The position numbers and the translations under genes are program-made. DNA of 64,000 nucleotides from a virus, in UHGV virus genome UHGV-0141727, one strand, 5' to 3'. Position 1 is the stretch's first letter. Every line of letters starts with the position of its first letter. Below, piece by piece: positions 1,299 to 58,966 of the stretch. The notes beneath the pieces are model-generated. The model did no database searches. It was not told where the DNA came from and saw only the letters and a program-made list of their open reading frames with translations.

Positions 1299-1496
1299 TC
1301 AAGTTACGATCCAATCATTACCGACTGCATCCGCCGTCGATAAATCGACTTCCCGGATCTGGTATCCATTAATACAAAACCATCCAGTGGTAGAGCTATT
1401 ATCAGGCCAGACCCATACACCAACACTCCATGCTTTACGGCGGCACACTTCAGCCTGTCCTTCCCTGATTTTTTTTACCGCCTGCATGATGTCCAT
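1299..1496 (-). CDS. DUF2829 / Tad2-like small protein
   Basis: ORF 1299..1511. Start MDIMQAV (ATG 1496) overlaps the upstream stop as TGATG. The pattern AVKKIREGxxVxRRxAW ... DLSTADAVGNDWIV matches the DUF2829 N- and C-terminal signatures as recalled. Paralogous to the C-terminus of 51286..52227. Confidence 0.55.
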   Translation of the reverse strand: MDIMQAVKKIREGQAEVCRRKAWSVGVWVWPDNSSTTGWFCINGYQIREVDLSTADAVGNDWIVT

Positions 1497-2203
1497 CACT
1501 CGCCTCCCCAACCGATTACCTGGAATTGCCCCATCCTTGGGTGATACCAGCGTTTTCCTCGGTGTTCAGCCTCCGACATCATCAGGGTAAAGGCATTCAT
1601 GAAGGGAGATAAGGCCACAATAGTACGACGCGACAATACCCCCTCTGGCGTCAAAAACTCATGCGTATCTGTGGGGATCCGGTAAGCGTTGACCAAGTTA
1701 CGGCATTTGGCTTCAGTCAGGCCGCATTTCGCCGCTAACTGGCGATAGCCAATGTAACCTTCCGGCATGTTGCCCTTCTTGATCTGCTCGACGGTTTCAG
1801 CGACCTGGCTAACCTTTGACTCAACAGCATGAAGCCGCTTTTGCTGCTGAACTGCATTCGCAGCCATTGCAGCGATCATCTCTATTTCGGTCAACGGCTG
1901 GCGTACTTGTTCTTCCAGTTCGCGCCAGCGGTCCACCAGCCGGGCGGTAAATTCGGGAGAAAGCTGCGCAACGACAATGATACTGTCACGCTTGCCTTGC
2001 TCGCCTTCGAAGAAATAGGCTTTTGTGTATTTATTAGGGCTAAGTGATTGATTATTCTCAACTGTAGCCAATGGCGTATGTTGGATAACTCCTTTAGCAA
2101 CAAGTCTTTCGATGCTGCGTTTAACATCAGAGTGACGACTTCCCACCAGTTCCGCGATCTCAATGCTGGTCATTGATGGCTTTTCGAGAATGCAGATATC
2201 CAT
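1496..2203 (-). CDS. Rha-family phage regulatory protein / antirepressor (immI-like module 1)
   Basis: N-terminal TSIEIAELVGSRHSDVxRSIERL (Phage_pRha-like). About 90% nt identity over several hundred bp to 51286..52227. Its ATG overlaps the icd-like stop (TGATG). Confidence 0.7.
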   Translation of the reverse strand: MDICILEKPSMTSIEIAELVGSRHSDVKRSIERLVAKGVIQHTPLATVENNQSLSPNKYTKAYFFEGEQGKRDSIIVVAQLSPEFTARLVDRWRELEEQVRQPLTEIEMIAAMAANAVQQQKRLHAVESKVSQVAETVEQIKKGNMPEGYIGYRQLAAKCGLTEAKCRNLVNAYRIPTDTHEFLTPEGVLSRRTIVALSPFMNAFTLMMSEAEHRGKRWYHPRMGQFQVIGWGGE

Positions 2204-2583: not shown

Positions 2584-2614
2584 ACAAAAATACCGCAATA
2601 TCGGATATCTGCGG
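2584..2614 (-). terminator. terminator-like hairpin between the a1/b1 boxes and the c4-like RNA
   Basis: Minus strand CCGCAGAUAU-CCG-AUAUUGCGG followed by UAUUUUUGUGU. An analogous element is present in module 2. Confidence 0.4.
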
Positions 2615-2742
2615 TTGTCCGCATGTACATTCAGGCTGCTAAACCCGGTCGCAGAATTTGCTACGACGGCATGAATATAAGCCTGAACATTAGAAAGATC
2701 AACAGAATTTTTATCAGATGCTGTTTTTTTGTGACGATGTAA

Positions 2743-2788
2743 ATCATACATTCCTGATTAGAAACATCAATTTAATTTTCTAACACAC
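2743..2788 (-). promoter_or_regulatory. promoter-operator of immI-like module 1
   Basis: Minus strand GTGTGTTAGAAAAT-taaaTTGATGTTTCTAATCA-ggaatg-TATGAT. The -35 is TTGATG (2770-2765), the -10 is TATGAT (2748-2743), spacer 16. The palindromic operator overlaps the -35. Confidence 0.6.
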
Positions 2789-3970: not shown

Positions 3971-4004
3971 CTGTGTTAGAAAATTAAGCTAGCTTTTAGC
4001 TCAC
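3971..4004. promoter_or_regulatory. operator site (strong left half, degenerate right half)
   Basis: CTGTGTTAGAAAAT at 3971-3984 is identical to the left arm at 42127-42140. The right half CTTTTAGCTCAC matches the consensus at 7/12. Confidence 0.45.
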
Positions 4005-34004: not shown

Positions 34005-34070
34005 GCATTAGAAAAATAATTTTCGTTAACAATCTTGTGTTAGTATGGTTTAATCTTAATTTTCTAACAT
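34005..34070. promoter_or_regulatory. double operator region between capsid gene and plus-strand operon
   Basis: GCATTAGAAAAAT at 34005-34017, plus the palindrome GTGTTAGTATGG-N10-ATTTTCTAACAT at 34037-34070. Confidence 0.55.
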
Positions 34071-42120: not shown

Positions 42121-42163
42121 GTAAAACTGTGTTAGAAAATAAAACTCAATTATCTAACACAGT
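42121..42163 (-). promoter_or_regulatory. promoter-operator of the rdgC / C5-MTase / dam operon
   Basis: 38-bp palindrome ACTGTGTTAGAAAAT-N8-ATTATCTAACACAGT (1 mismatch). The -35 is TTGAGT at the centre and the -10-like element is TTTTAC at 42126-42121. ATG at 42115 has no SD. Confidence 0.65.
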
Positions 42164-46080: not shown

Positions 46081-46082
46081 CA

Positions 46083-46104
46083 AAGCCCACCTTAAGGTGG
46101 GCTT
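46083..46104. terminator. hairpin terminator between convergent genes
   Basis: AAGCCCACC-UUAA-GGUGGGCUU. The U-rich tail is better on the minus strand (UUGUUAUUUU). Confidence 0.5.
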
Positions 46105-46305
46105 CGCCAGAAATTATTTTCTGGTATTCAGAACGCCATTACCGGACTTTGCCTTGACCAAGTATCACAACTGGTTTGACCTGTTATGATAGCTGGTTGC
46201 GGGATGTCTGAATTTCTTCAGTCTGCTGCATCCTCGAAGGTTTGGTTCAACATGTACCATTCCTTCACCGTCATAATAGTGTACTATTCACGTCCTTGCA
46301 AACAC

Positions 46306-51285: not shown

Positions 51286-52227
51286 TTAACTAATAATCCA
51301 GTCGGTTGCTGCTACATCTTCTGGCTGCAAATCAATCGCACAGATCTTACCGTCGCGAATGGTGCGCCAGTTTTTCCGTGAGCCTCTTTCGGGCCATACC
51401 CAGACACTTTCAGGCCAGGATGCTCGACGGCATACGGTTGCATACCCTGTTTTAATCTTCTCTCTGGCGGTATGCAACGACAGGTTTGCCTTTGGACTTT
51501 CAGGCACAGGATGGTGAATGGCCTGAAATAGCCCCATCTTGGGATGATACCAGCGTTTGTTACGTGGTTCTGCCTCCGACATAACCTGCTTAAAGGCTTT
51601 CCGGAAGGGGGCCAGGGCCACAATGGAACGTCGCGCAAGCAAACCGTCGGGAGTTAAAAACTCATGCGTATCAGTGGGTATCCGGTAAGCGTTGACCAGG
51701 TTACGGCATTTGGCTTCAGTCAGGCCACATTTCGCCGCCAACTGGCGGTAGCCAATGTAGCCTTCCGGAATATTGCCTTTCTTGATCTGCTCGACGGTTT
51801 CAGCGACTTTGGACACTTGTGCCGATACTTCGGCTACCTGGGCATTAACGGCGTTGATCCGGCGTTCATGCTCAAGATGCATTTGCGCCATTTCAGCCAG
51901 AATTTCGGCTTTTGATTTTAACTGTGCCCGGGCATTCTCCAGTTCGCGCCAGCGGTCCACCAGCCGGGCGGTGAATTCGGGAGAGAGCTGCGCGACGACA
52001 ATAATGCTGTCTCGTTTGCCTTGCTCGCCTTCAAAGACATAGACCGGATCTTTGACAACCTTCCCTAAGTTATTGATTCTTTCGACGAACTCATTTTGAG
52101 TTTCTCGGATGACACCGCTCGCCATCATATTGCGAATGGTACGTAAAACGTTGCCATGACGACTACCAACTAACTCTGCAATATCCAGGCTATTCATTGT
52201 AGCTTTTTGGGTGATAGACAGATTCAT
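51286..52227 (-). CDS. Rha-family antirepressor fused to C-terminal DUF2829/Tad2-like domain (immI-like module 2)
   Basis: 313 aa. N-terminus NSLDIAELVGSRHGNVLRTIRNM. The middle is about 90% identical to 1496..2203. C-terminus REKIKTGYATVCRRASW...DLQPEDVAATDWIIS parallels ORF 1299..1496. Confidence 0.7.
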   Translation of the reverse strand: MNLSITQKATMNSLDIAELVGSRHGNVLRTIRNMMASGVIRETQNEFVERINNLGKVVKDPVYVFEGEQGKRDSIIVVAQLSPEFTARLVDRWRELENARAQLKSKAEILAEMAQMHLEHERRINAVNAQVAEVSAQVSKVAETVEQIKKGNIPEGYIGYRQLAAKCGLTEAKCRNLVNAYRIPTDTHEFLTPDGLLARRSIVALAPFRKAFKQVMSEAEPRNKRWYHPKMGLFQAIHHPVPESPKANLSLHTAREKIKTGYATVCRRASWPESVWVWPERGSRKNWRTIRDGKICAIDLQPEDVAATDWIIS

Positions 52228-52442
52228 CAGTGCACCTCCACGCAGTTCATTGGTAGATTCCAGTAATTGAGGATCTCCATCGCATCAAGAGTGAAGCGTG
52301 CGGCAAAAATGCAGGGTTCTTCGGGAAGGTATGAGCGCGCCTCTGCTTCGGTAGCAGCCATTACGCAGATATAGAGGTGTTTTTGGCAGGAATAGAAACG
52401 CCAGATAAATTCAGAATGAGTTGGGGTAGGGATAGTAGCCAT
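52227..52442 (-). CDS. icd: Icd-like small protein
   Basis: 71 aa. EFIWRFYS...AATEAEARSYL. AAGGAGG SD. Stop overlaps the antirepressor ATG (TGATG). Confidence 0.65.
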   Translation of the reverse strand: MATIPTPTHSEFIWRFYSCQKHLYICVMAATEAEARSYLPEEPCIFAARFTLDAMEILNYWNLPMNCVEVH

Positions 52443-52502
52443 ATTGGCAGCCTCCTTTGACTAAGTTAAGGAGCTACCGCGTGAGGTTCCAATCTCAATG
52501 GC

Positions 52503-52578
52503 GGTAGCACTGACTGGGTTGGAACTACCGGCGTCAAAGGGAACCGGCCTGCCTTTCGGCAGCCCAGCCAGCACTACC
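52503..52578 (-). ncRNA. c4: c4-like antisense RNA (module 2)
   Basis: 76 nt with a 16-bp closing stem (GGUAGUGCUGGCUGGG / CCCAGUCAGUGCUACC). Contains a GCC-GAAA-GGC hairpin and a 5-bp hairpin with a 12-nt loop carrying CCUUUGAC. Single-stranded GUUCCAA follows, and 3' GCCA. Complementary boxes lie at 52681-52675/52664-52657 and 52492-52486/52461-52454. Confidence 0.65.
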
Positions 52579-52626
52579 ATTGATCTCTGAGCTAAACGCT
52601 ACGTATGGCTGTGCGATGGCATGACA

Positions 52627-52650
52627 CAAAAAAAGACGCTTTCGGCGTCT
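52627..52650 (-). terminator. rho-independent terminator between the a1/b1 boxes and the c4-like RNA
   Basis: Minus strand AGACGC-CGAAA-GCGUCU followed by U7. Confidence 0.7.
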
Positions 52651-52755
52651 GTGTCGCCTTTGACATTATCCGGGGTTCCAATCCCGGCACCCGTTTTTCT
52701 AAGGTGCCGTAGAAATATACCCCACGATAATGCCAGGGCGCAACTGTGTGTTTTC

Positions 52756-52923
52756 TTATGCTTTTCTTTTCTTCTTTTGGGCTTGCTTGCAAGCGTAGGC
52801 CATTGCTTTAGCTTTCACTTCATCCAGCTTCCCGGTGATCACTTCTTTTCCAAGAGTGACAAACCAATCATAGCAACCGCCAGTGATGTTCTGGATTTGA
52901 AAGTTGAGGTAGCGAACGGTCAT
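52756..52923 (-). CDS. small hypothetical protein (55 aa), not in the ORF track
   Basis: ATG 52923 after GGGGGTG. Sequence MTVRYLNFQIQNITGGCYDWFVTLGKEVITGKLDEVKAKAMAYACKQAQKKKRKA. An upstream 29-codon ORF (53009-52920) ends in an ATGA overlap. Confidence 0.35.
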   Translation of the reverse strand: MTVRYLNFQIQNITGGCYDWFVTLGKEVITGKLDEVKAKAMAYACKQAQKKKRKA

Positions 52924-53208
52924 TTTGACACCCCCAGCGCGAGTAAAGAATGCAGATTATCGCGTGAGTGGCGGACAACGAGTGATGGGAAAAGACAGTA
53001 GCTGTTCATAGTGTAGTGACTCCTTGCTTTTGGAGCCGCCATCGACTGTTCCACGGTCTGGTGGCGGCGCAATAAAGGTTGGAACACCGTGAGTCAACGG
53101 GGGCTTTTCAGCCACCTATATTGCACCGCCATTGGTATGGCGGCGGCAATCATACGAAAAACCAAACGGTTTGTCTCAAAAAGTTGACCGGTGTACCAAT
53201 CGGTTGTG

Positions 53209-53256
53209 AATGTACAACGGTGAATTTCACAATTCAACTTAAAATGTTAGAAAACT
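53209..53256 (-). promoter_or_regulatory. promoter of immI-like module 2 with upstream operator half-site
   Basis: Minus strand GTTTTCTAACAT (53255-53244), then 6 nt, then TTGAAT (53237-53232), N17, TACATT (53214-53209). The spacer contains the palindrome GTGAAATTCAC. Confidence 0.5.
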
Positions 53257-53830
53257 AATTTATTAATTCAGTCACCATCTGATACAACGTCATTTCATCG
53301 GCATTGTGCCGCCTGAAATCTGCTTTGCCGCCTATTTTTCCATCAGCATGAACAGGGACCAACCAGGGGTATTGCTCGCGTATCTCTGCTGGCGCTGCGT
53401 GTTGATGGTGCCATTTACACAAAGGGAGAACGTATTTATGCGCGTTCTCTGCCGTTCTCCCGAAGATGTGGTGCAGGGATACCACAGGGCTATGCTGTCC
53501 GTGCATATGGCAGGCAATGCAGGGGAGAGCACCGATGGCAGTTTGTATCCGGCGCTCATCTGCTGTGAGCGTTCTGCCTTTCAGGCCACGTGACGTGCGC
53601 GTTTTTTTGACTGGAGCAGAAGCGGCCTTCTCTTTTCTTCGCTGTTCATATTGCTTCGCTTTTTCAATTTTCTTTTGCCGATATTCAGGCGATGCAGCCT
53701 TTTCTCGCGCACGCTGCTGCTGGCGTTGAGCTTGCTGAAGACGCTTTGCCCTTTGTTCCTCCCGCCATTTCGGATCAGCCAGTTTTTTCAGGGCTTTTTG
53801 CGTCTGTTTCTCCCAATAGCTTTGCTTCAT
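53255..53830 (-). CDS. ref: Ref-like HNH endonuclease (P1 recombination enhancement function)
   Basis: ORF 53255..53872 has a TTG start; ATG 53830 is likelier. Basic disordered N-terminus, then RGLKGRT..ERRI...GALPCIACHMHG...SLHHI.GRT...LPLCKWHHQHAAPAEIREQYPWLVPVHADG, closely matching recalled P1 Ref. Confidence 0.8.
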   Translation of the reverse strand: MKQSYWEKQTQKALKKLADPKWREEQRAKRLQQAQRQQQRAREKAASPEYRQKKIEKAKQYEQRRKEKAASAPVKKTRTSRGLKGRTLTADERRIQTAIGALPCIACHMHGQHSPVVSLHHIFGRTAENAHKYVLPLCKWHHQHAAPAEIREQYPWLVPVHADGKIGGKADFRRHNADEMTLYQMVTELIN

Positions 53831-53873: not shown

Positions 53874-53920
53874 TGTGTTAGAAAATCAAAATTGATTTTC
53901 TAACACAAAATGAAGATACT
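53874..53920. promoter_or_regulatory. best-conserved promoter-operator (divergent: ref / plus-strand early operon)
   Basis: Perfect 15-bp arms TGTGTTAGAAAATCA-aaat-TGATTTTCTAACACA at 53874-53907. Plus-strand promoter is TTGATT (53892-97), N17, GATACT (53915-20). Confidence 0.7.
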
Positions 53921-58926: not shown

Positions 58927-58966
58927 ATGTTAGAATATTGATTTTAATTTTCTAACAGATTATTTT
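58927..58966 (+). promoter_or_regulatory. promoter-operator of the 59000+ operon
   Basis: ATGTTAGAATAT-N8-ATTTTCTAACAG. The -35 is TTGATT (58938-43), N17, TATTTT (58961-66). Confidence 0.6.

What the first reader, a model, noticed from the sequence alone, without database searches (positions are those of the whole stretch)
52227..53256. immI-like module 2: second c4-type circuit with the same architecture but different recognition boxes
On the minus strand the promoter is TTGAAT, N17, TACATT at 53237-53209, with an operator half-site just upstream. Two small ORFs follow. Then come box a1 UUGGAAC (52681-52675), box b1 GUCAAAGG (52664-52657) and a strong terminator (52650-52627).

Next is a 76-nt element at 52578-52503. 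It has a 16-bp closing stem, a GAAA hairpin and a second hairpin whose loop carries CCUUUGAC (b'). Single-stranded GUUCCAA (a') and a 3' GCCA follow.

Downstream, a2 UUGGAAC (52492-52486) and b2 GUCAAAGG (52461-52454) are found. Box b2 overlaps the AAGGAGG SD of the icd-like gene. A further GUUCCAA copy lies at about 53080 inside another structured stretch.

The fold is equivalent to module 1: closing stem, tetraloop hairpin, b' loop, a' single strand, GCCA.
Basis: partly seen in the sequence, partly recalled or inferred. Interest (0 to 1): 0.85.

Follow-up and report, generated by a model that had tools for sequence, protein, structure and literature searches.

The report
Second C4 antisense-RNA immunity cassette
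This stretch of a phage D6-like plasmid prophage is a genuine but already-known kind of switch: a small C4-type antisense RNA that blocks translation of a cell-division inhibitor and an antirepressor, and just upstream of it sits a further, unannotated C4-like RNA.

Summary
In detail: every box, stem and coordinate is in the sequence. The 76-nt element scores 77 bits on Rfam's C4 model (gathering score 45). The a1/b1 leader plus terminator scores 63 bits on Rfam isrK. The downstream gene is a P1 Icd homolog (63% identity), followed by a Rha-type antirepressor.

Across 30 distinct relatives the a'/b' boxes and all four target boxes change together, giving seven specificity types. 99.8% of cells stay paired, against 27-58% in slid controls.

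Corrections:
- The cassette most likely has its own promoter at 52743-52714, equivalent to P1 P51b and Gifsy-1 PisrK.
- The "structured stretch" at about 53080 is a third C4-like RNA (42 bits, E 1e-4). Its loop and single strand match a UGGAAC box and the Shine-Dalgarno region of a small ORF pair. It is conserved, but no covariation supports it.

The kind is well known from P1/P7 c4, P4 CI and Gifsy-1 IsrK/STnc1160. A second c4-icd region in D6-like plasmids is already in the literature. Only the tandem third RNA and the catalogue of box types appear new.

The parts
53245..53261 (-). D6-type operator-like 17-mer AAATTAGTTTTCTAACA. It lies 7 nt upstream of the -35 of the upstream promoter and overlaps the stop codon of the ref gene.
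   Evidence: The motif AAATTAATTTTCTAACA at up to 3 mismatches has 11 sites in the window against 0.30 expected, with 0 of 100 shuffles reaching that number. Three sites are overlapping inverted pairs. The same motif-promoter arrangement occurs in L092 and L120. The P1 operator consensus has 0 hits.
53209..53237 (-). It most likely drives the upstream unit (C4-0, orf86, orf85).
   Evidence: It is in the sequence but scores only 8/12 and is not listed by the scan. Its position is conserved right after the operator motif in D6-like loci, in L092 (TTGATC-17-TAAATT) and in L120 (TTGATA..TACATT).
53149..53177 (-). Promoter candidate B (GAGACA-N17-TATGAT), immediately 5' of the upstream C4-like RNA.
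   Evidence: The scan scores it 9/12. Most relatives have TATTAT, and L092 has GAGACA-17-TAATAT at the same place.
53057..53136 (-). C4-0, a third C4-like RNA with core about 53130-53059. It has a 17-bp closing stem, a GGCU-GAAA-AGCC hairpin, a CCGU-UGACUC-ACGG hairpin (loop 53096-53091), a single-stranded GUUCCA (53085-53080) and a 3' ACCA tail.
   Evidence: Rfam C4 matches full length at 42.3 bits (gathering score 45), with E 1.8e-6 locally and 1.1e-4 over the window. The 131-nt context folds with z = -4.4. It is nearly invariant in about 25 distinct D6-like sequences while the flanks vary. 98.9% of cells are paired, but no pair changes on both sides.
53048..53053 (-). a0 box UGGAAC, complementary to the single strand GUUCCA of C4-0.
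   Evidence: Read from the sequence. It is invariant in all variants although the adjacent spacer changes. Duplex energy is -8.9 kcal/mol, p about 0.005 against shuffles.
53017..53022 (-). b0 box GAGUCA, the exact complement of the 6-nt loop UGACUC of C4-0. It overlaps the SD AAGGAG (53026-53021) of orf86 and lies 25 nt after a0 (a2 to b2 is 24 nt).
   Evidence: Read from the sequence. It is kept in L028/L029 despite an adjacent 5-nt deletion, and in L092. Duplex energy is -8.7 kcal/mol, p about 0.04.
52920..53009 (-). orf86 (29 aa), probably a truncated remnant of an Icd-like ORF. Its stop overlaps the start of orf85 (ATGA).
   Evidence: ORF list and sequence; the D6 record has orf86. In L092 the same position holds a 61-aa ORF that matches NF033153 phage_ICD_like at 47.1 bits.
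52756..52923 (-). orf85 (55 aa, basic C-terminus), function unknown, restricted to D6-like elements.
   Evidence: phrog_7786 at 9e-42, unknown function. Only 16 homolog clusters, all hypothetical and mostly on contigs of about 90 kb. No similarity to P1 Coi.
52714..52743 (-). Promoter candidate C (TTGCGC-N18-TATATT), equivalent to P1 P51b and Gifsy-1 PisrK. The predicted start is about G52707.
   Evidence: The same geometry (-35, 18-nt spacer, -10, 5-6 nt, leader hairpin) occurs in D6-like, P1-like and Gifsy-1 contexts and in P1's annotated P51b. PisrK is shown experimentally in PMC4825925.
52629..52707 (-). IsrK-like leader: hairpin GGCACC../GGGUGCC, a1 UUGGAAC (52681-52675) in a hairpin loop, b1 GUCAAAGG (52664-52657), and an intrinsic terminator (52650-52627).
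   Evidence: Rfam isrK 62.7 bits (gathering score 50). Terminator scan. The a1-a' and b1-b' duplexes co-vary.
52500..52578 (-). Main C4 antisense RNA (Rfam hit 52584-52497): 16-bp closing stem, GAAA hairpin, b' CCUUUGAC in the hairpin-2 loop, a' GUUCCAA single-stranded, 3' GCC(A) tail.
   Evidence: Rfam C4 77.1 bits. Fold z = -5.6. 13 of 26 intramolecular pairs change on both sides in relatives.
52486..52492 (-). a2 target box UUGGAAC.
   Evidence: Read from the sequence. 4 of 7 pairs with a' change on both sides and 100% of cells are paired.
52451..52461 (-). b2 target box GUCAAAGG (52461-52454), overlapping the SD AAGGAGG (52457-52451) of the icd-like gene.
   Evidence: Read from the sequence. 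3 of 8 pairs with b' change on both sides and 100% of cells are paired.
52227..52442 (-). icd-like gene (71 aa).
   Evidence: 63% identical to P1 Icd, E 6e-28. NF033153 phage_ICD_like 49.4 bits. phrog_1426 3.7e-41.
51286..52227 (-). Rha-type antirepressor (313 aa). Its start overlaps the icd stop (ATGA).
   Evidence: PF09669 Phage_pRha 3.7e-9. phrog_63 'anti-repressor Ant' 6.3e-61. 63% identical to the module 1 paralog. No similarity to P1 Ant1 or Gifsy-1 AnrP.

Best explanation
Module 2 is a working C4/IsrK-type antisense-RNA immunity cassette of a phage D6-like plasmid prophage.

Proposed mechanism:
1. Transcription starts at a P51b/PisrK-like promoter (52743-52714).
2. Part of it stops at the leader terminator, giving a roughly 79-nt IsrK-like RNA that displays a1 and b1.
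3. The remainder reads through. A tRNA-like RNA of about 79 nt (52578-52500) is cut out of the read-through transcript, by analogy with P1 through RNase P.
4. This RNA uses its loop b' (CCUUUGAC) and single strand a' (GUUCCAA) to pair with a2 and b2 on the same kind of transcript.
5. Pairing at b2 covers the Shine-Dalgarno sequence of the icd-like gene. This blocks icd translation and, through coupling and polarity, expression of the Rha-type antirepressor behind it. The prophage repressor therefore stays active.
6. The a1/b1 leader acts as a competing binding site (decoy) and/or a termination checkpoint.

The box sequences set the specificity. This element is type A, whereas phage D6 itself is type D and module 1 has unrelated boxes. 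The two modules in this replicon are therefore independent, heteroimmune-style channels.

A separate, smaller C4-like unit lies upstream (53136-53017). It is driven from the operator-flanked promoter and probably represses the orf86-orf85 pair in the same manner.

Shown here: family membership, fold, box complementarity, covariation, gene content and conserved promoter geometry. Inferred: RNA processing, repression in trans, polarity, the decoy role, and what the antirepressor targets.
For: Family and fold:
- Rfam C4 77.1 bits and isrK 62.7 bits, both above their gathering scores.
- Fold z = -5.6.
- One-to-one correspondence with the annotated P1 immI features.
- Gifsy-1 has the same order isrK, C4, antirepressor. 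In Gifsy-1, IsrK and a processed RNA of about 80 nt (STnc1160) were detected experimentally, and IsrK supplied in trans raised antirepressor translation 140-fold (PMC4825925).

Covariation (30 distinct sequences):
- 99.8% of cells are paired. 20 of 41 pairs change on both sides for the fold plus a'-a2 and b'-b2, and 7 of 15 for a1-a' and b1-b'.
- Slid controls give 27-58% paired.
- There are seven specificity types (A-G), including all four combinations of two a' and two b' variants on one scaffold.

Other evidence:
- Cognate duplexes are favoured, and module 1 and module 2 are orthogonal.
- b2 overlaps the SD.
- Icd homology and the Rha-type antirepressor.
- Promoter geometry shared with P51b and PisrK.
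- ACCGCCA 3' of the stem is invariant in all 30 distinct sequences (31 rows).
- A review states that c4 RNA blocks antirepressor synthesis by pairing around the ribosome binding site and underlies P1/P7 heteroimmunity (PMC12197685).
Against: - There are no expression or processing data for this element.
- Promoter C scores only 8/12 against the sigma-70 consensus and was not listed by the scan.
- The covariation rests on about seven independent specificity types, not on 30 independent events.
- The antirepressor is not a P1 Ant1 homolog, and its target repressor is not encoded in the window: tblastn finds no C1 homolog.
- One relative, L034, carries a mismatched a1, so a1 is not strictly required to match.
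- For the upstream C4-0 unit no covariation exists, its Rfam score is below the gathering score, and a divergent relative (L120) lacks it.
Confidence: 0.85

Rival explanations
1. The RNA acts mainly as a transcription-termination factor in the manner of P4 CI RNA. Pairing with a1/b1 in the nascent leader, and with a2/b2, would drive premature termination at the 52650-52627 terminator or downstream, rather than blocking ribosome binding.
For: The region is 72.6% identical over about 145 nt to the P4 cI region. C4 and c4-a1b1 share an Rfam clan. A strong intrinsic terminator follows b1. The IsrK paper calls IsrK a structural homolog of P4 SeqA and proposes that STnc1160 modulates termination at the IsrK terminator (PMC4825925).
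Against: b2 overlaps the SD in every relative. That conservation is not required for a purely termination-based mechanism. The downstream context is icd plus antirepressor, as in P1, and not a replication operon. The two mechanisms are not exclusive.
Confidence: 0.3
2. The functionally dominant species is the short IsrK-like leader RNA. It would act in trans as an activator by titrating the C4 RNA or opening an inhibitory mRNA structure. The locus would then be an inducible 'on' switch for the antirepressor rather than an immunity repressor.
For: isrK scores 62.7 bits. The leader has its own promoter-like element and terminator. In Gifsy-1, IsrK in trans raises anrP translation 140-fold (PMC4825925).
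Against: This complements the C4 model rather than replacing it, because the same boxes are involved. In Gifsy-1 the activation required translation of 'orf45' coupled to anrP. Here the ORF over the RNA stops 19 nt before the icd ATG, and it is not conserved as an ORF (14 aa in P1; in-frame read-through in type E).
Confidence: 0.35
3. The 76-nt element is part of a small protein gene (the 39-aa ORF 52580..52461, called 'ash family protein' in some plasmid annotations) and not an RNA gene.
For: An ATG at the 5' end of the element is invariant. PGAP annotations under the match include 'ash family protein'. 'orf45' in Gifsy-1 was reported as translated (PMC4825925).
Against: 13 of 26 stem pairs show compensatory double changes. 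ORF length and frame are not conserved. NCBIfam finds no protein family for the 39-aa product. The covariance-model score is 77 bits.
Confidence: 0.04

Closest known systems
P1/P7 immI: c4 antisense RNA with a1, b1, a2, b2, icd, ant1/2 (Rfam RF01695 and RF03163; annotated in NC_005856)
   Same: Same order of parts: leader with a1 and b1, terminator-like hairpin, a tRNA-like RNA of about 77 nt with b' in a loop and a' single-stranded, then a2, then b2 over the SD of icd, and an antirepressor gene overlapping the icd stop. Icd is 63% identical. The promoter sits 5-6 nt before the leader hairpin, as for P51b. Specificity is set by a few bases in the boxes, as in P1 versus P7.
   Different: The scaffold sequence differs: module 2 uses the RCS47/JL22/D6 scaffold, whereas module 1 uses the P1 scaffold. 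The boxes differ. The antirepressor is Rha-type and unrelated to Ant1/2. There is no P1-type C1 operator. An extra C4-like unit and two small ORFs lie between the operator-flanked promoter and the cassette.
Gifsy-1 IsrK - STnc1160 ('orf45') - AnrP locus (Rfam RF01394; PMC4825925)
   Same: The leader matches the isrK model above the gathering score. It is directly followed by a C4-family RNA and an antirepressor gene, and the promoter geometry is the same.
   Different: There is an icd-like gene between the RNA and the antirepressor. The antirepressor families are unrelated. The ORF over the RNA is not coupled to the next gene.
Satellite phage P4 immunity: CI RNA with seqA/seqB/seqC
   Same: The RNA is processed from its own transcript, with complementary sites upstream and downstream. 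blastn finds similarity to the P4 cI region.
   Different: P4 CI causes premature termination before replication genes. Here the 3' target overlaps an SD, and the cargo is icd plus an antirepressor.
Second c4/icd region of D6-like plasmid prophages (pYU39_89; PMC6799933) and the extra antirepressor cassette between pacB and c1 in RCS47-like P1 plasmids (PMC6906374)
   Same: This is the same cassette. The window is 92-97% identical to D6 and to D6-like plasmids here, and the leader-C4-icd start is 95.5% identical to RCS47.
   Different: Those papers mention the region only at gene level. The D6 GenBank record annotates no RNA there. The papers I could read do not describe the box types, the internal promoter or the upstream third C4-like RNA. 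The D6 genome paper could not be read.

Membership tests
C4 antisense RNA (Rfam RF01695; P1/P7 c4) | Covariance-model score at or above the curated gathering score | tested here: met
   77.1 bits against 45, full-length model 1-87, E 2.4e-13.
C4 antisense RNA (Rfam RF01695; P1/P7 c4) | Three-way fold: long closing stem, tetraloop hairpin, second hairpin with b' in its loop, single-stranded a' | tested here: met
   The MFE fold is as described, z = -5.6. 13 of 26 pairs have compensatory changes.
C4 antisense RNA (Rfam RF01695; P1/P7 c4) | a'/b' complementary to a2/b2 downstream, with b2 over the ribosome binding site of the next gene | tested here: met
   Read from the sequence. 100% of cells are paired and 7 of 15 pairs change on both sides.
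C4 antisense RNA (Rfam RF01695; P1/P7 c4) | Second set of target boxes a1/b1 upstream of the RNA | tested here: met
   Read from the sequence. 99.8% of cells are paired and 7 of 15 pairs change on both sides. c4-a1b1 reaches only 22.4 bits here, but isrK reaches 62.7 bits over the same stretch.
C4 antisense RNA (Rfam RF01695; P1/P7 c4) | Downstream icd, then an antirepressor with overlapping stop/start | tested here: met
   Icd is 63% identical to P1 Icd and matches NF033153. There is an ATGA overlap with a 313-aa antirepressor. The antirepressor is Rha-type and not an Ant1 homolog.
C4 antisense RNA (Rfam RF01695; P1/P7 c4) | Mature RNA of about 77 nt produced by RNase P processing of the operon transcript | not testable with these tools
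   Only indirect signs: an invariant CAAUGG at the 5' end and an invariant ACCGCCA at the 3' end, which give a tRNA-like acceptor stem plus NCCA.
C4 antisense RNA (Rfam RF01695; P1/P7 c4) | Promoter pair with a C1 operator (Op51/P51a plus constitutive P51b) | tested here: inconclusive
   A P51b-like promoter lies at 52743-52714. There is no P1-type operator. A D6-type operator motif at 53261-53245 flanks a promoter 500 nt upstream. No C1 gene is present in the window.
C4 antisense RNA (Rfam RF01695; P1/P7 c4) | Repression of antirepressor synthesis in trans; determines heteroimmunity | not testable with these tools
   Inferred from box types A-G and from orthogonality of duplex energies.
IsrK sRNA (Rfam RF01394) | Covariance-model score at or above the gathering score, ending in an intrinsic terminator | tested here: met
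   62.7 bits against 50 at 52707-52629. Terminator at 52650-52634 plus a U-run.
IsrK sRNA (Rfam RF01394) | Own promoter directly upstream; followed by a processed RNA of about 80 nt and an antirepressor | tested here: met
   Promoter geometry is shared with PisrK. The order C4 then antirepressor matches Gifsy-1. This is in silico only.
IsrK sRNA (Rfam RF01394) | Hfq binding and trans-activation of antirepressor translation via a coupled upstream ORF | not testable with these tools
   The ORF over the RNA is not coupled to icd here.
P4 CI RNA immunity | RNA-dependent premature termination upstream of replication (alpha operon) genes | tested here: not met
   The downstream genes are icd-like and an antirepressor, not replication genes. 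Only sequence similarity to the P4 cI region was found.
C4 antisense RNA - upstream element C4-0 (53136-53057) | Covariance-model score at or above the gathering score | tested here: not met
   42.3 bits against 45. E is 1.1e-4 over the window. L092 scores 38 bits and L122 39.5 bits.
C4 antisense RNA - upstream element C4-0 (53136-53057) | Loop and single strand complementary to downstream boxes, the second over an SD; supported by covariation | tested here: inconclusive
   The complementarity is exact (6 + 6 nt), with the same spacing as a2-b2, and it is conserved at three levels of divergence. However, no pair changes on both sides.

The most novel reading that the evidence does not exclude
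D6-like phage-plasmids run a two-tier, tandem antisense-RNA circuit.

Tier 1: an operator-controlled promoter drives a minimal C4-like RNA (C4-0, with a 6-nt loop). This RNA gates translation of a small ORF pair, orf86-orf85, where orf85 is an uncharacterised 55-aa basic protein found only in these elements.

Tier 2: the classical IsrK/C4 cassette, with its own promoter, follows immediately.

In elements of box type A or B, which includes this window, the two RNAs share the a-box. They could therefore cross-talk, linking repressor status to antirepressor release.

Together with module 1, one replicon would then carry three C4-type RNAs with combinatorial 'barcode' specificities.
Probability: 0.35. 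Interest if true: 0.55.

Novelty: new member of a known kind. Interest (0 to 1): 0.35.

Why it matters
Two things go a little further.

First, relatives show a natural catalogue of at least seven box specificities on near-identical scaffolds, including all four combinations of two a' and two b' variants. This amounts to ready-made compensatory-mutation evidence. It also predicts which D6-like and P1-like phage-plasmids, many of which carry resistance genes, are immune or sensitive to each other's antirepressor control.

Second, an unannotated third C4-like RNA with its own SD-overlapping target suggests these elements stack several antisense switches in series. It also links the P1 c4, P4 CI and Salmonella IsrK literatures, which treat the same RNA module under different names.

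Tried and rejected
- **P1-type C1 operator near the promoter.** The P1 consensus ATTGCTCTAATAAATTT has no match at up to 3 mismatches anywhere in the window. I replaced it with a D6-type motif.
- **C1 repressor gene in the window.** tblastn with P1 C1 found nothing, so the operator-repressor link remains an inference.
- **An IsrK-like a/b leader in front of C4-0** (UUGGUAC, GUCAAC and a U-run at 53201-53180). It is not conserved in D6, L028, L029 or L092, so I dropped it.
- **The AGUCGA next to a0 as the b-target of C4-0.** It is not conserved. GAGUCA in the SD is the conserved complement.
- **orf85 as a Coi-like C1 inactivator.** There is no alignment to P1 Coi and no family name in Pfam, NCBIfam or PHROGs. 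Homologs are all hypothetical.
- **Covariation for C4-0.** I looked for divergent copies through orf85 homologs. All copies carry identical boxes, and L120 lacks the RNA, so the test could not be done.
- **The D6 genome paper (PMC5800970).** It is not held, so I could not check whether it already describes these RNAs.
- **Whole-window box counts as evidence.** They are not significant.


Full report
**1. Observation**

Reading the minus strand confirms every element at the stated coordinates:
- a1 UUGGAAC, 52681-52675
- b1 GUCAAAGG, 52664-52657
- a GC-rich hairpin plus U-run, 52650-52627 (also returned by the terminator scan)
- a 76-nt element, 52578-52503, followed by GCCA
- a2, 52492-52486
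- b2, 52461-52454, overlapping the AAGGAGG ahead of the ATG at 52442
- a second GUUCCAA, 53085-53079

The element folds as described: a 16-bp closing stem, a GAAA hairpin, a second hairpin with CCUUUGAC in its loop, and a single-stranded GUUCCAA. MFE is -46.7 kcal/mol and z = -5.6.

Counts of the 7- and 8-mers across the 64-kb window are not unusual in themselves (11 against 9.9 expected; 5 against 1.9). The case rests on arrangement, model scores and covariation.

**2. What the replicon is**

The 2.7 kb around the finding is 92.4% identical to Escherichia phage D6 and 90-97% identical to about 90 plasmids of roughly 90 kb from E. coli and Salmonella. The window is therefore a D6-like plasmid prophage.

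The D6 record annotates only ORFs here: ref, orf86, orf85, orf84, an icd-like gene and an antirepressor. It annotates no RNA.

[quoted passage not shown] The D6 genome paper itself is not in the held library.

**3. Family assignment**

Rfam at gathering thresholds gives four relevant hits:
- C4 (RF01695) at 52584-52497, 77.1 bits
- isrK (RF01394) at 52707-52629, 62.7 bits, covering a1, b1 and the terminator
- for module 1, C4 at 2560-2475, 71.7 bits
- for module 1, c4-a1b1 at 2680-2628, 53.9 bits

P1's richly annotated immI supplies a reference with Oc4, P51a, P51b, a1, b1, C4 (77 nt), a2, b2, icd and ant1. Module 2 maps onto it part for part. Module 1 shares P1's actual scaffold sequence, while module 2 uses a second scaffold that is also found in the P1-like phages RCS47 and JL22.

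In Gifsy-1 the published IsrK sRNA is followed directly by an Rfam C4 hit (69 bits) and then the antirepressor. The IsrK paper itself reports three relevant things (PMC4825925):
- a processed RNA of about 80 nt (STnc1160) complementary to IsrK
- that IsrK is a structural homolog of P4 SeqA
- that IsrK supplied in trans raises antirepressor translation 140-fold

P1 c4, P4 CI and IsrK/STnc1160 are therefore one module under three names, and module 2 belongs to it.

**4.

I fetched 80 IMG/VR loci through an alignment of the two Icd-like proteins and added further loci later. On an almost identical 78-nt scaffold the RNAs fall into box types:

| Type | a' | b' | Loci |
|---|---|---|---|
| A (this window) | GUUCCAA | CCUUUGAC | 18 |
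| B | GUUCCAA | CCUUUUGC | 26 |
| C | GUCUCAA | CCUUUGAC | 4 |
| D (phage D6 itself) | GUCUCAA | CCUUUUGC | 4, plus D6 itself |
| E (different arms) | AGGCCAA | CCUUGGAC | 25 |
| F | AGACCAA | CCUUUGAC | 2 |
| G (L120) | GUUCCAA | CUUUAGUG | 1 |

In every type a1, a2, b1 and b2 carry the matching complement, sometimes through G·U pairs.

On 30 distinct sequences:
- The fold plus a'-a2 and b'-b2 is paired in 99.8% of cells, and 20 of 41 pairs change on both sides. Sliding the partners by 1-3 columns gives 27-49%.
- a1-a' and b1-b' give 99.8%, with 7 of 15 pairs changing on both sides. Slid controls give 32-58%.

The flanks are nearly identical among types A-D. The complementarity is therefore maintained by concerted change, and the stated refutation condition is not met.

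Two caveats apply. These represent roughly seven independent types, not thirty events. One locus (L034) has a mismatched a1 and is probably a recombinant.

**5. Orthogonality**

Duplex energies of each RNA's loop and single strand against each target region favour the cognate pairs:
- main C4: a -8.5 kcal/mol, b -14.2 and -15.3 kcal/mol
- module 1: a about -8 kcal/mol, b -15.3 and -11.8 kcal/mol

The module 1 RNA on module 2 targets, and the reverse, is no better than shuffled sequence. The two modules are independent channels.

**6. Promoters and operators**

The P1 operator consensus is absent from the whole window.

A different 17-mer, AAATTAATTTTCTAACA, occurs 11 times at up to 3 mismatches against 0.30 expected. 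Its sites include:
- the module 1 promoter region
- three overlapping inverted pairs, the arrangement that P1's record calls bivalent operators

It is not, however, the proximal promoter of the cassette. Directly before the leader hairpin lies TTGCGC-N18-TATATT (52743-52714). It shares its geometry with P1 P51b, with Gifsy-1 PisrK (an experimentally shown promoter) and with the same cassette in P1-like contexts. In those P1-like contexts a true P1 operator lies further upstream. The predicted start, about G52707, coincides with the start of the isrK match.

No C1 homolog is encoded in this window.

**7. The 'other structured stretch'**

The region 53136-53057 is a full-length match to the C4 model at 42.3 bits, just under the gathering score. 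E is 1.8e-6 locally and 1.1e-4 over the whole window.

It has a 17-bp closing stem, a GAAA hairpin, a short second hairpin with loop UGACUC, a single-stranded GUUCCA and an ACCA tail. Downstream lie UGGAAC (53053-53048) and, 25 nt later, GAGUCA (53022-53017). GAGUCA is the exact complement of the loop and overlaps the SD of orf86. That spacing matches a2-b2, which is 24 nt.

The element and both boxes are invariant in about 25 distinct D6-like sequences, in L028/L029 (82% identity, despite a 5-nt deletion beside b0) and in L092. The spacer between the boxes varies.

Its a' does not follow the main RNA's type. D6 is type D and L004/L028 are type F, yet C4-0 keeps GUUCCA in all of them. It is therefore an independent unit and not a spare target. 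The identity of its a' with the main a' in this window is a property of types A and B only.

In L092 the unit stands alone: ref, the C4-like RNA, a 61-aa ORF matching NF033153 phage_ICD_like (47 bits), and the orf85 homolog, with no IsrK/C4/icd/ant behind it. L120 has the operator, promoter and orf85 but no C4-like RNA.

Because no copy has different boxes, no covariation test is possible: 0 pairs change on both sides. This part rests on conservation and model score only.

**8. Proteins**
- The 71-aa product is an Icd homolog: 63% identical to P1 Icd, E 6e-28, and NF033153 at 49 bits.
- The 313-aa product has an N-terminal Phage_pRha domain and matches phrog_63 'anti-repressor Ant' at 6e-61. 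It is 63% identical to the module 1 paralog but unrelated to P1 Ant1 and to Gifsy-1 AnrP.
- orf85 is a 55-aa ORFan of D6-like elements with no similarity to P1 Coi.
- The 39-aa ORF lying over the RNA is not conserved as an ORF and matches no family.

**9. Mechanism**

By homology and covariation, the RNA pairs with a2 and with b2/SD to block icd translation, and with it antirepressor expression. A review summarises this for P1/P7 c4 (PMC12197685). That Ant expression depends on C1, C4 and Icd is stated in PMC8201110.

From my own knowledge of the P1 literature (Citron and Schuster 1990; Biere et al. 1992; Hartmann et al. 1995):
- The block on icd translation causes Rho-dependent polarity on ant.
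- The RNA is released by RNase P.

The invariant CAAUGG 5' end and the ACCGCCA 3' end are consistent with RNase P processing. Whether the leader acts as a decoy, as a termination checkpoint, or as both cannot be decided here.

**10. Verdict**

The thing itself is a known kind: it is detectable with curated models and has already been mentioned for D6-like plasmids. To my knowledge the following are new:
- the RNA-level anatomy of this cassette in D6-like elements
- the seven-type box catalogue
- the internal promoter
- the tandem third C4-like unit

I score interest at 0.35 and class the finding as a new member of a known kind.

Noticed in passing
window 53057-53136 (-), with boxes at 53053-53048 and 53022-53017: A third, unannotated C4-like RNA scoring just below the Rfam gathering score (42.3 against 45 bits). 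Its own a/b-type target boxes lie in front of orf86-orf85. It also occurs alone in L092 (533-611).
   Followed up: yes
window 2769-2785, 3974-3990, 34006-34069, 42130-42159, 53245-53261, 53876-53905, 58928-58957: A recurrent 17-bp motif, AAATTAATTTTCTAACA, with 11 sites against 0.3 expected. Three sites are overlapping inverted pairs resembling P1 bivalent C1 operators. It is probably the operator set of the D6-type C1 repressor, whose gene is not in this window.
   Followed up: partly
window 1299-1511 and 1496-2203 (-): The module 1 antirepressor is split. A 235-aa ORF is followed by an overlapping 70-aa ORF whose sequence resembles the C-terminal domain of the intact 313-aa module 2 paralog (..VWVWP..). 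This could be a frameshift or a two-gene arrangement.
   Followed up: no
window 46082-46267 (-): A strong Rfam sroH match (113 bits, gathering score 80) on a phage-plasmid. sroH is otherwise known as an E. coli chromosomal sRNA.
   Followed up: no
window 2586-2667 (-): The module 1 leader also matches the isrK model (46.3 bits, just below the gathering score) in addition to c4-a1b1. Gifsy-1 IsrK matches c4-a1b1 as well (48.1 bits, L085 34277-34329). The two Rfam families describe the same leader but are not in one clan.
   Followed up: partly
L034 (IMG/VR), leader region: A natural recombinant with a mismatched a1 (UUGAGAC) next to an RNA with a' GUUCCAA and a matching a2. a1 can evidently be non-cognate in a circulating element.
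   Followed up: no
L122 and L123, 1672-3189: An IS605-family element (TnpB plus Y1 transposase) is inserted right after the orf85 homolog, where the main cassette's promoter and leader would be. The upstream C4-like RNA is retained (39.5 bits).
   Followed up: no
window 52461-52580 (-), and plasmid annotations under the match: RefSeq plasmid records list an 'ash family protein' in this region. This is probably an ORF call laid over the C4 RNA, as happened historically with P4 'ash'/cI.
   Followed up: partly
window 53139-53146 with 53036-53043 (-): GCCGCCAU upstream of C4-0 can pair either with the 5' arm of the C4-0 closing stem or with AUGGCGGC downstream of a0. L028/L029 change both partners compatibly (GUCAU / GUGAC). 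This may be an alternative-structure switch around the upstream RNA.
   Followed up: partly
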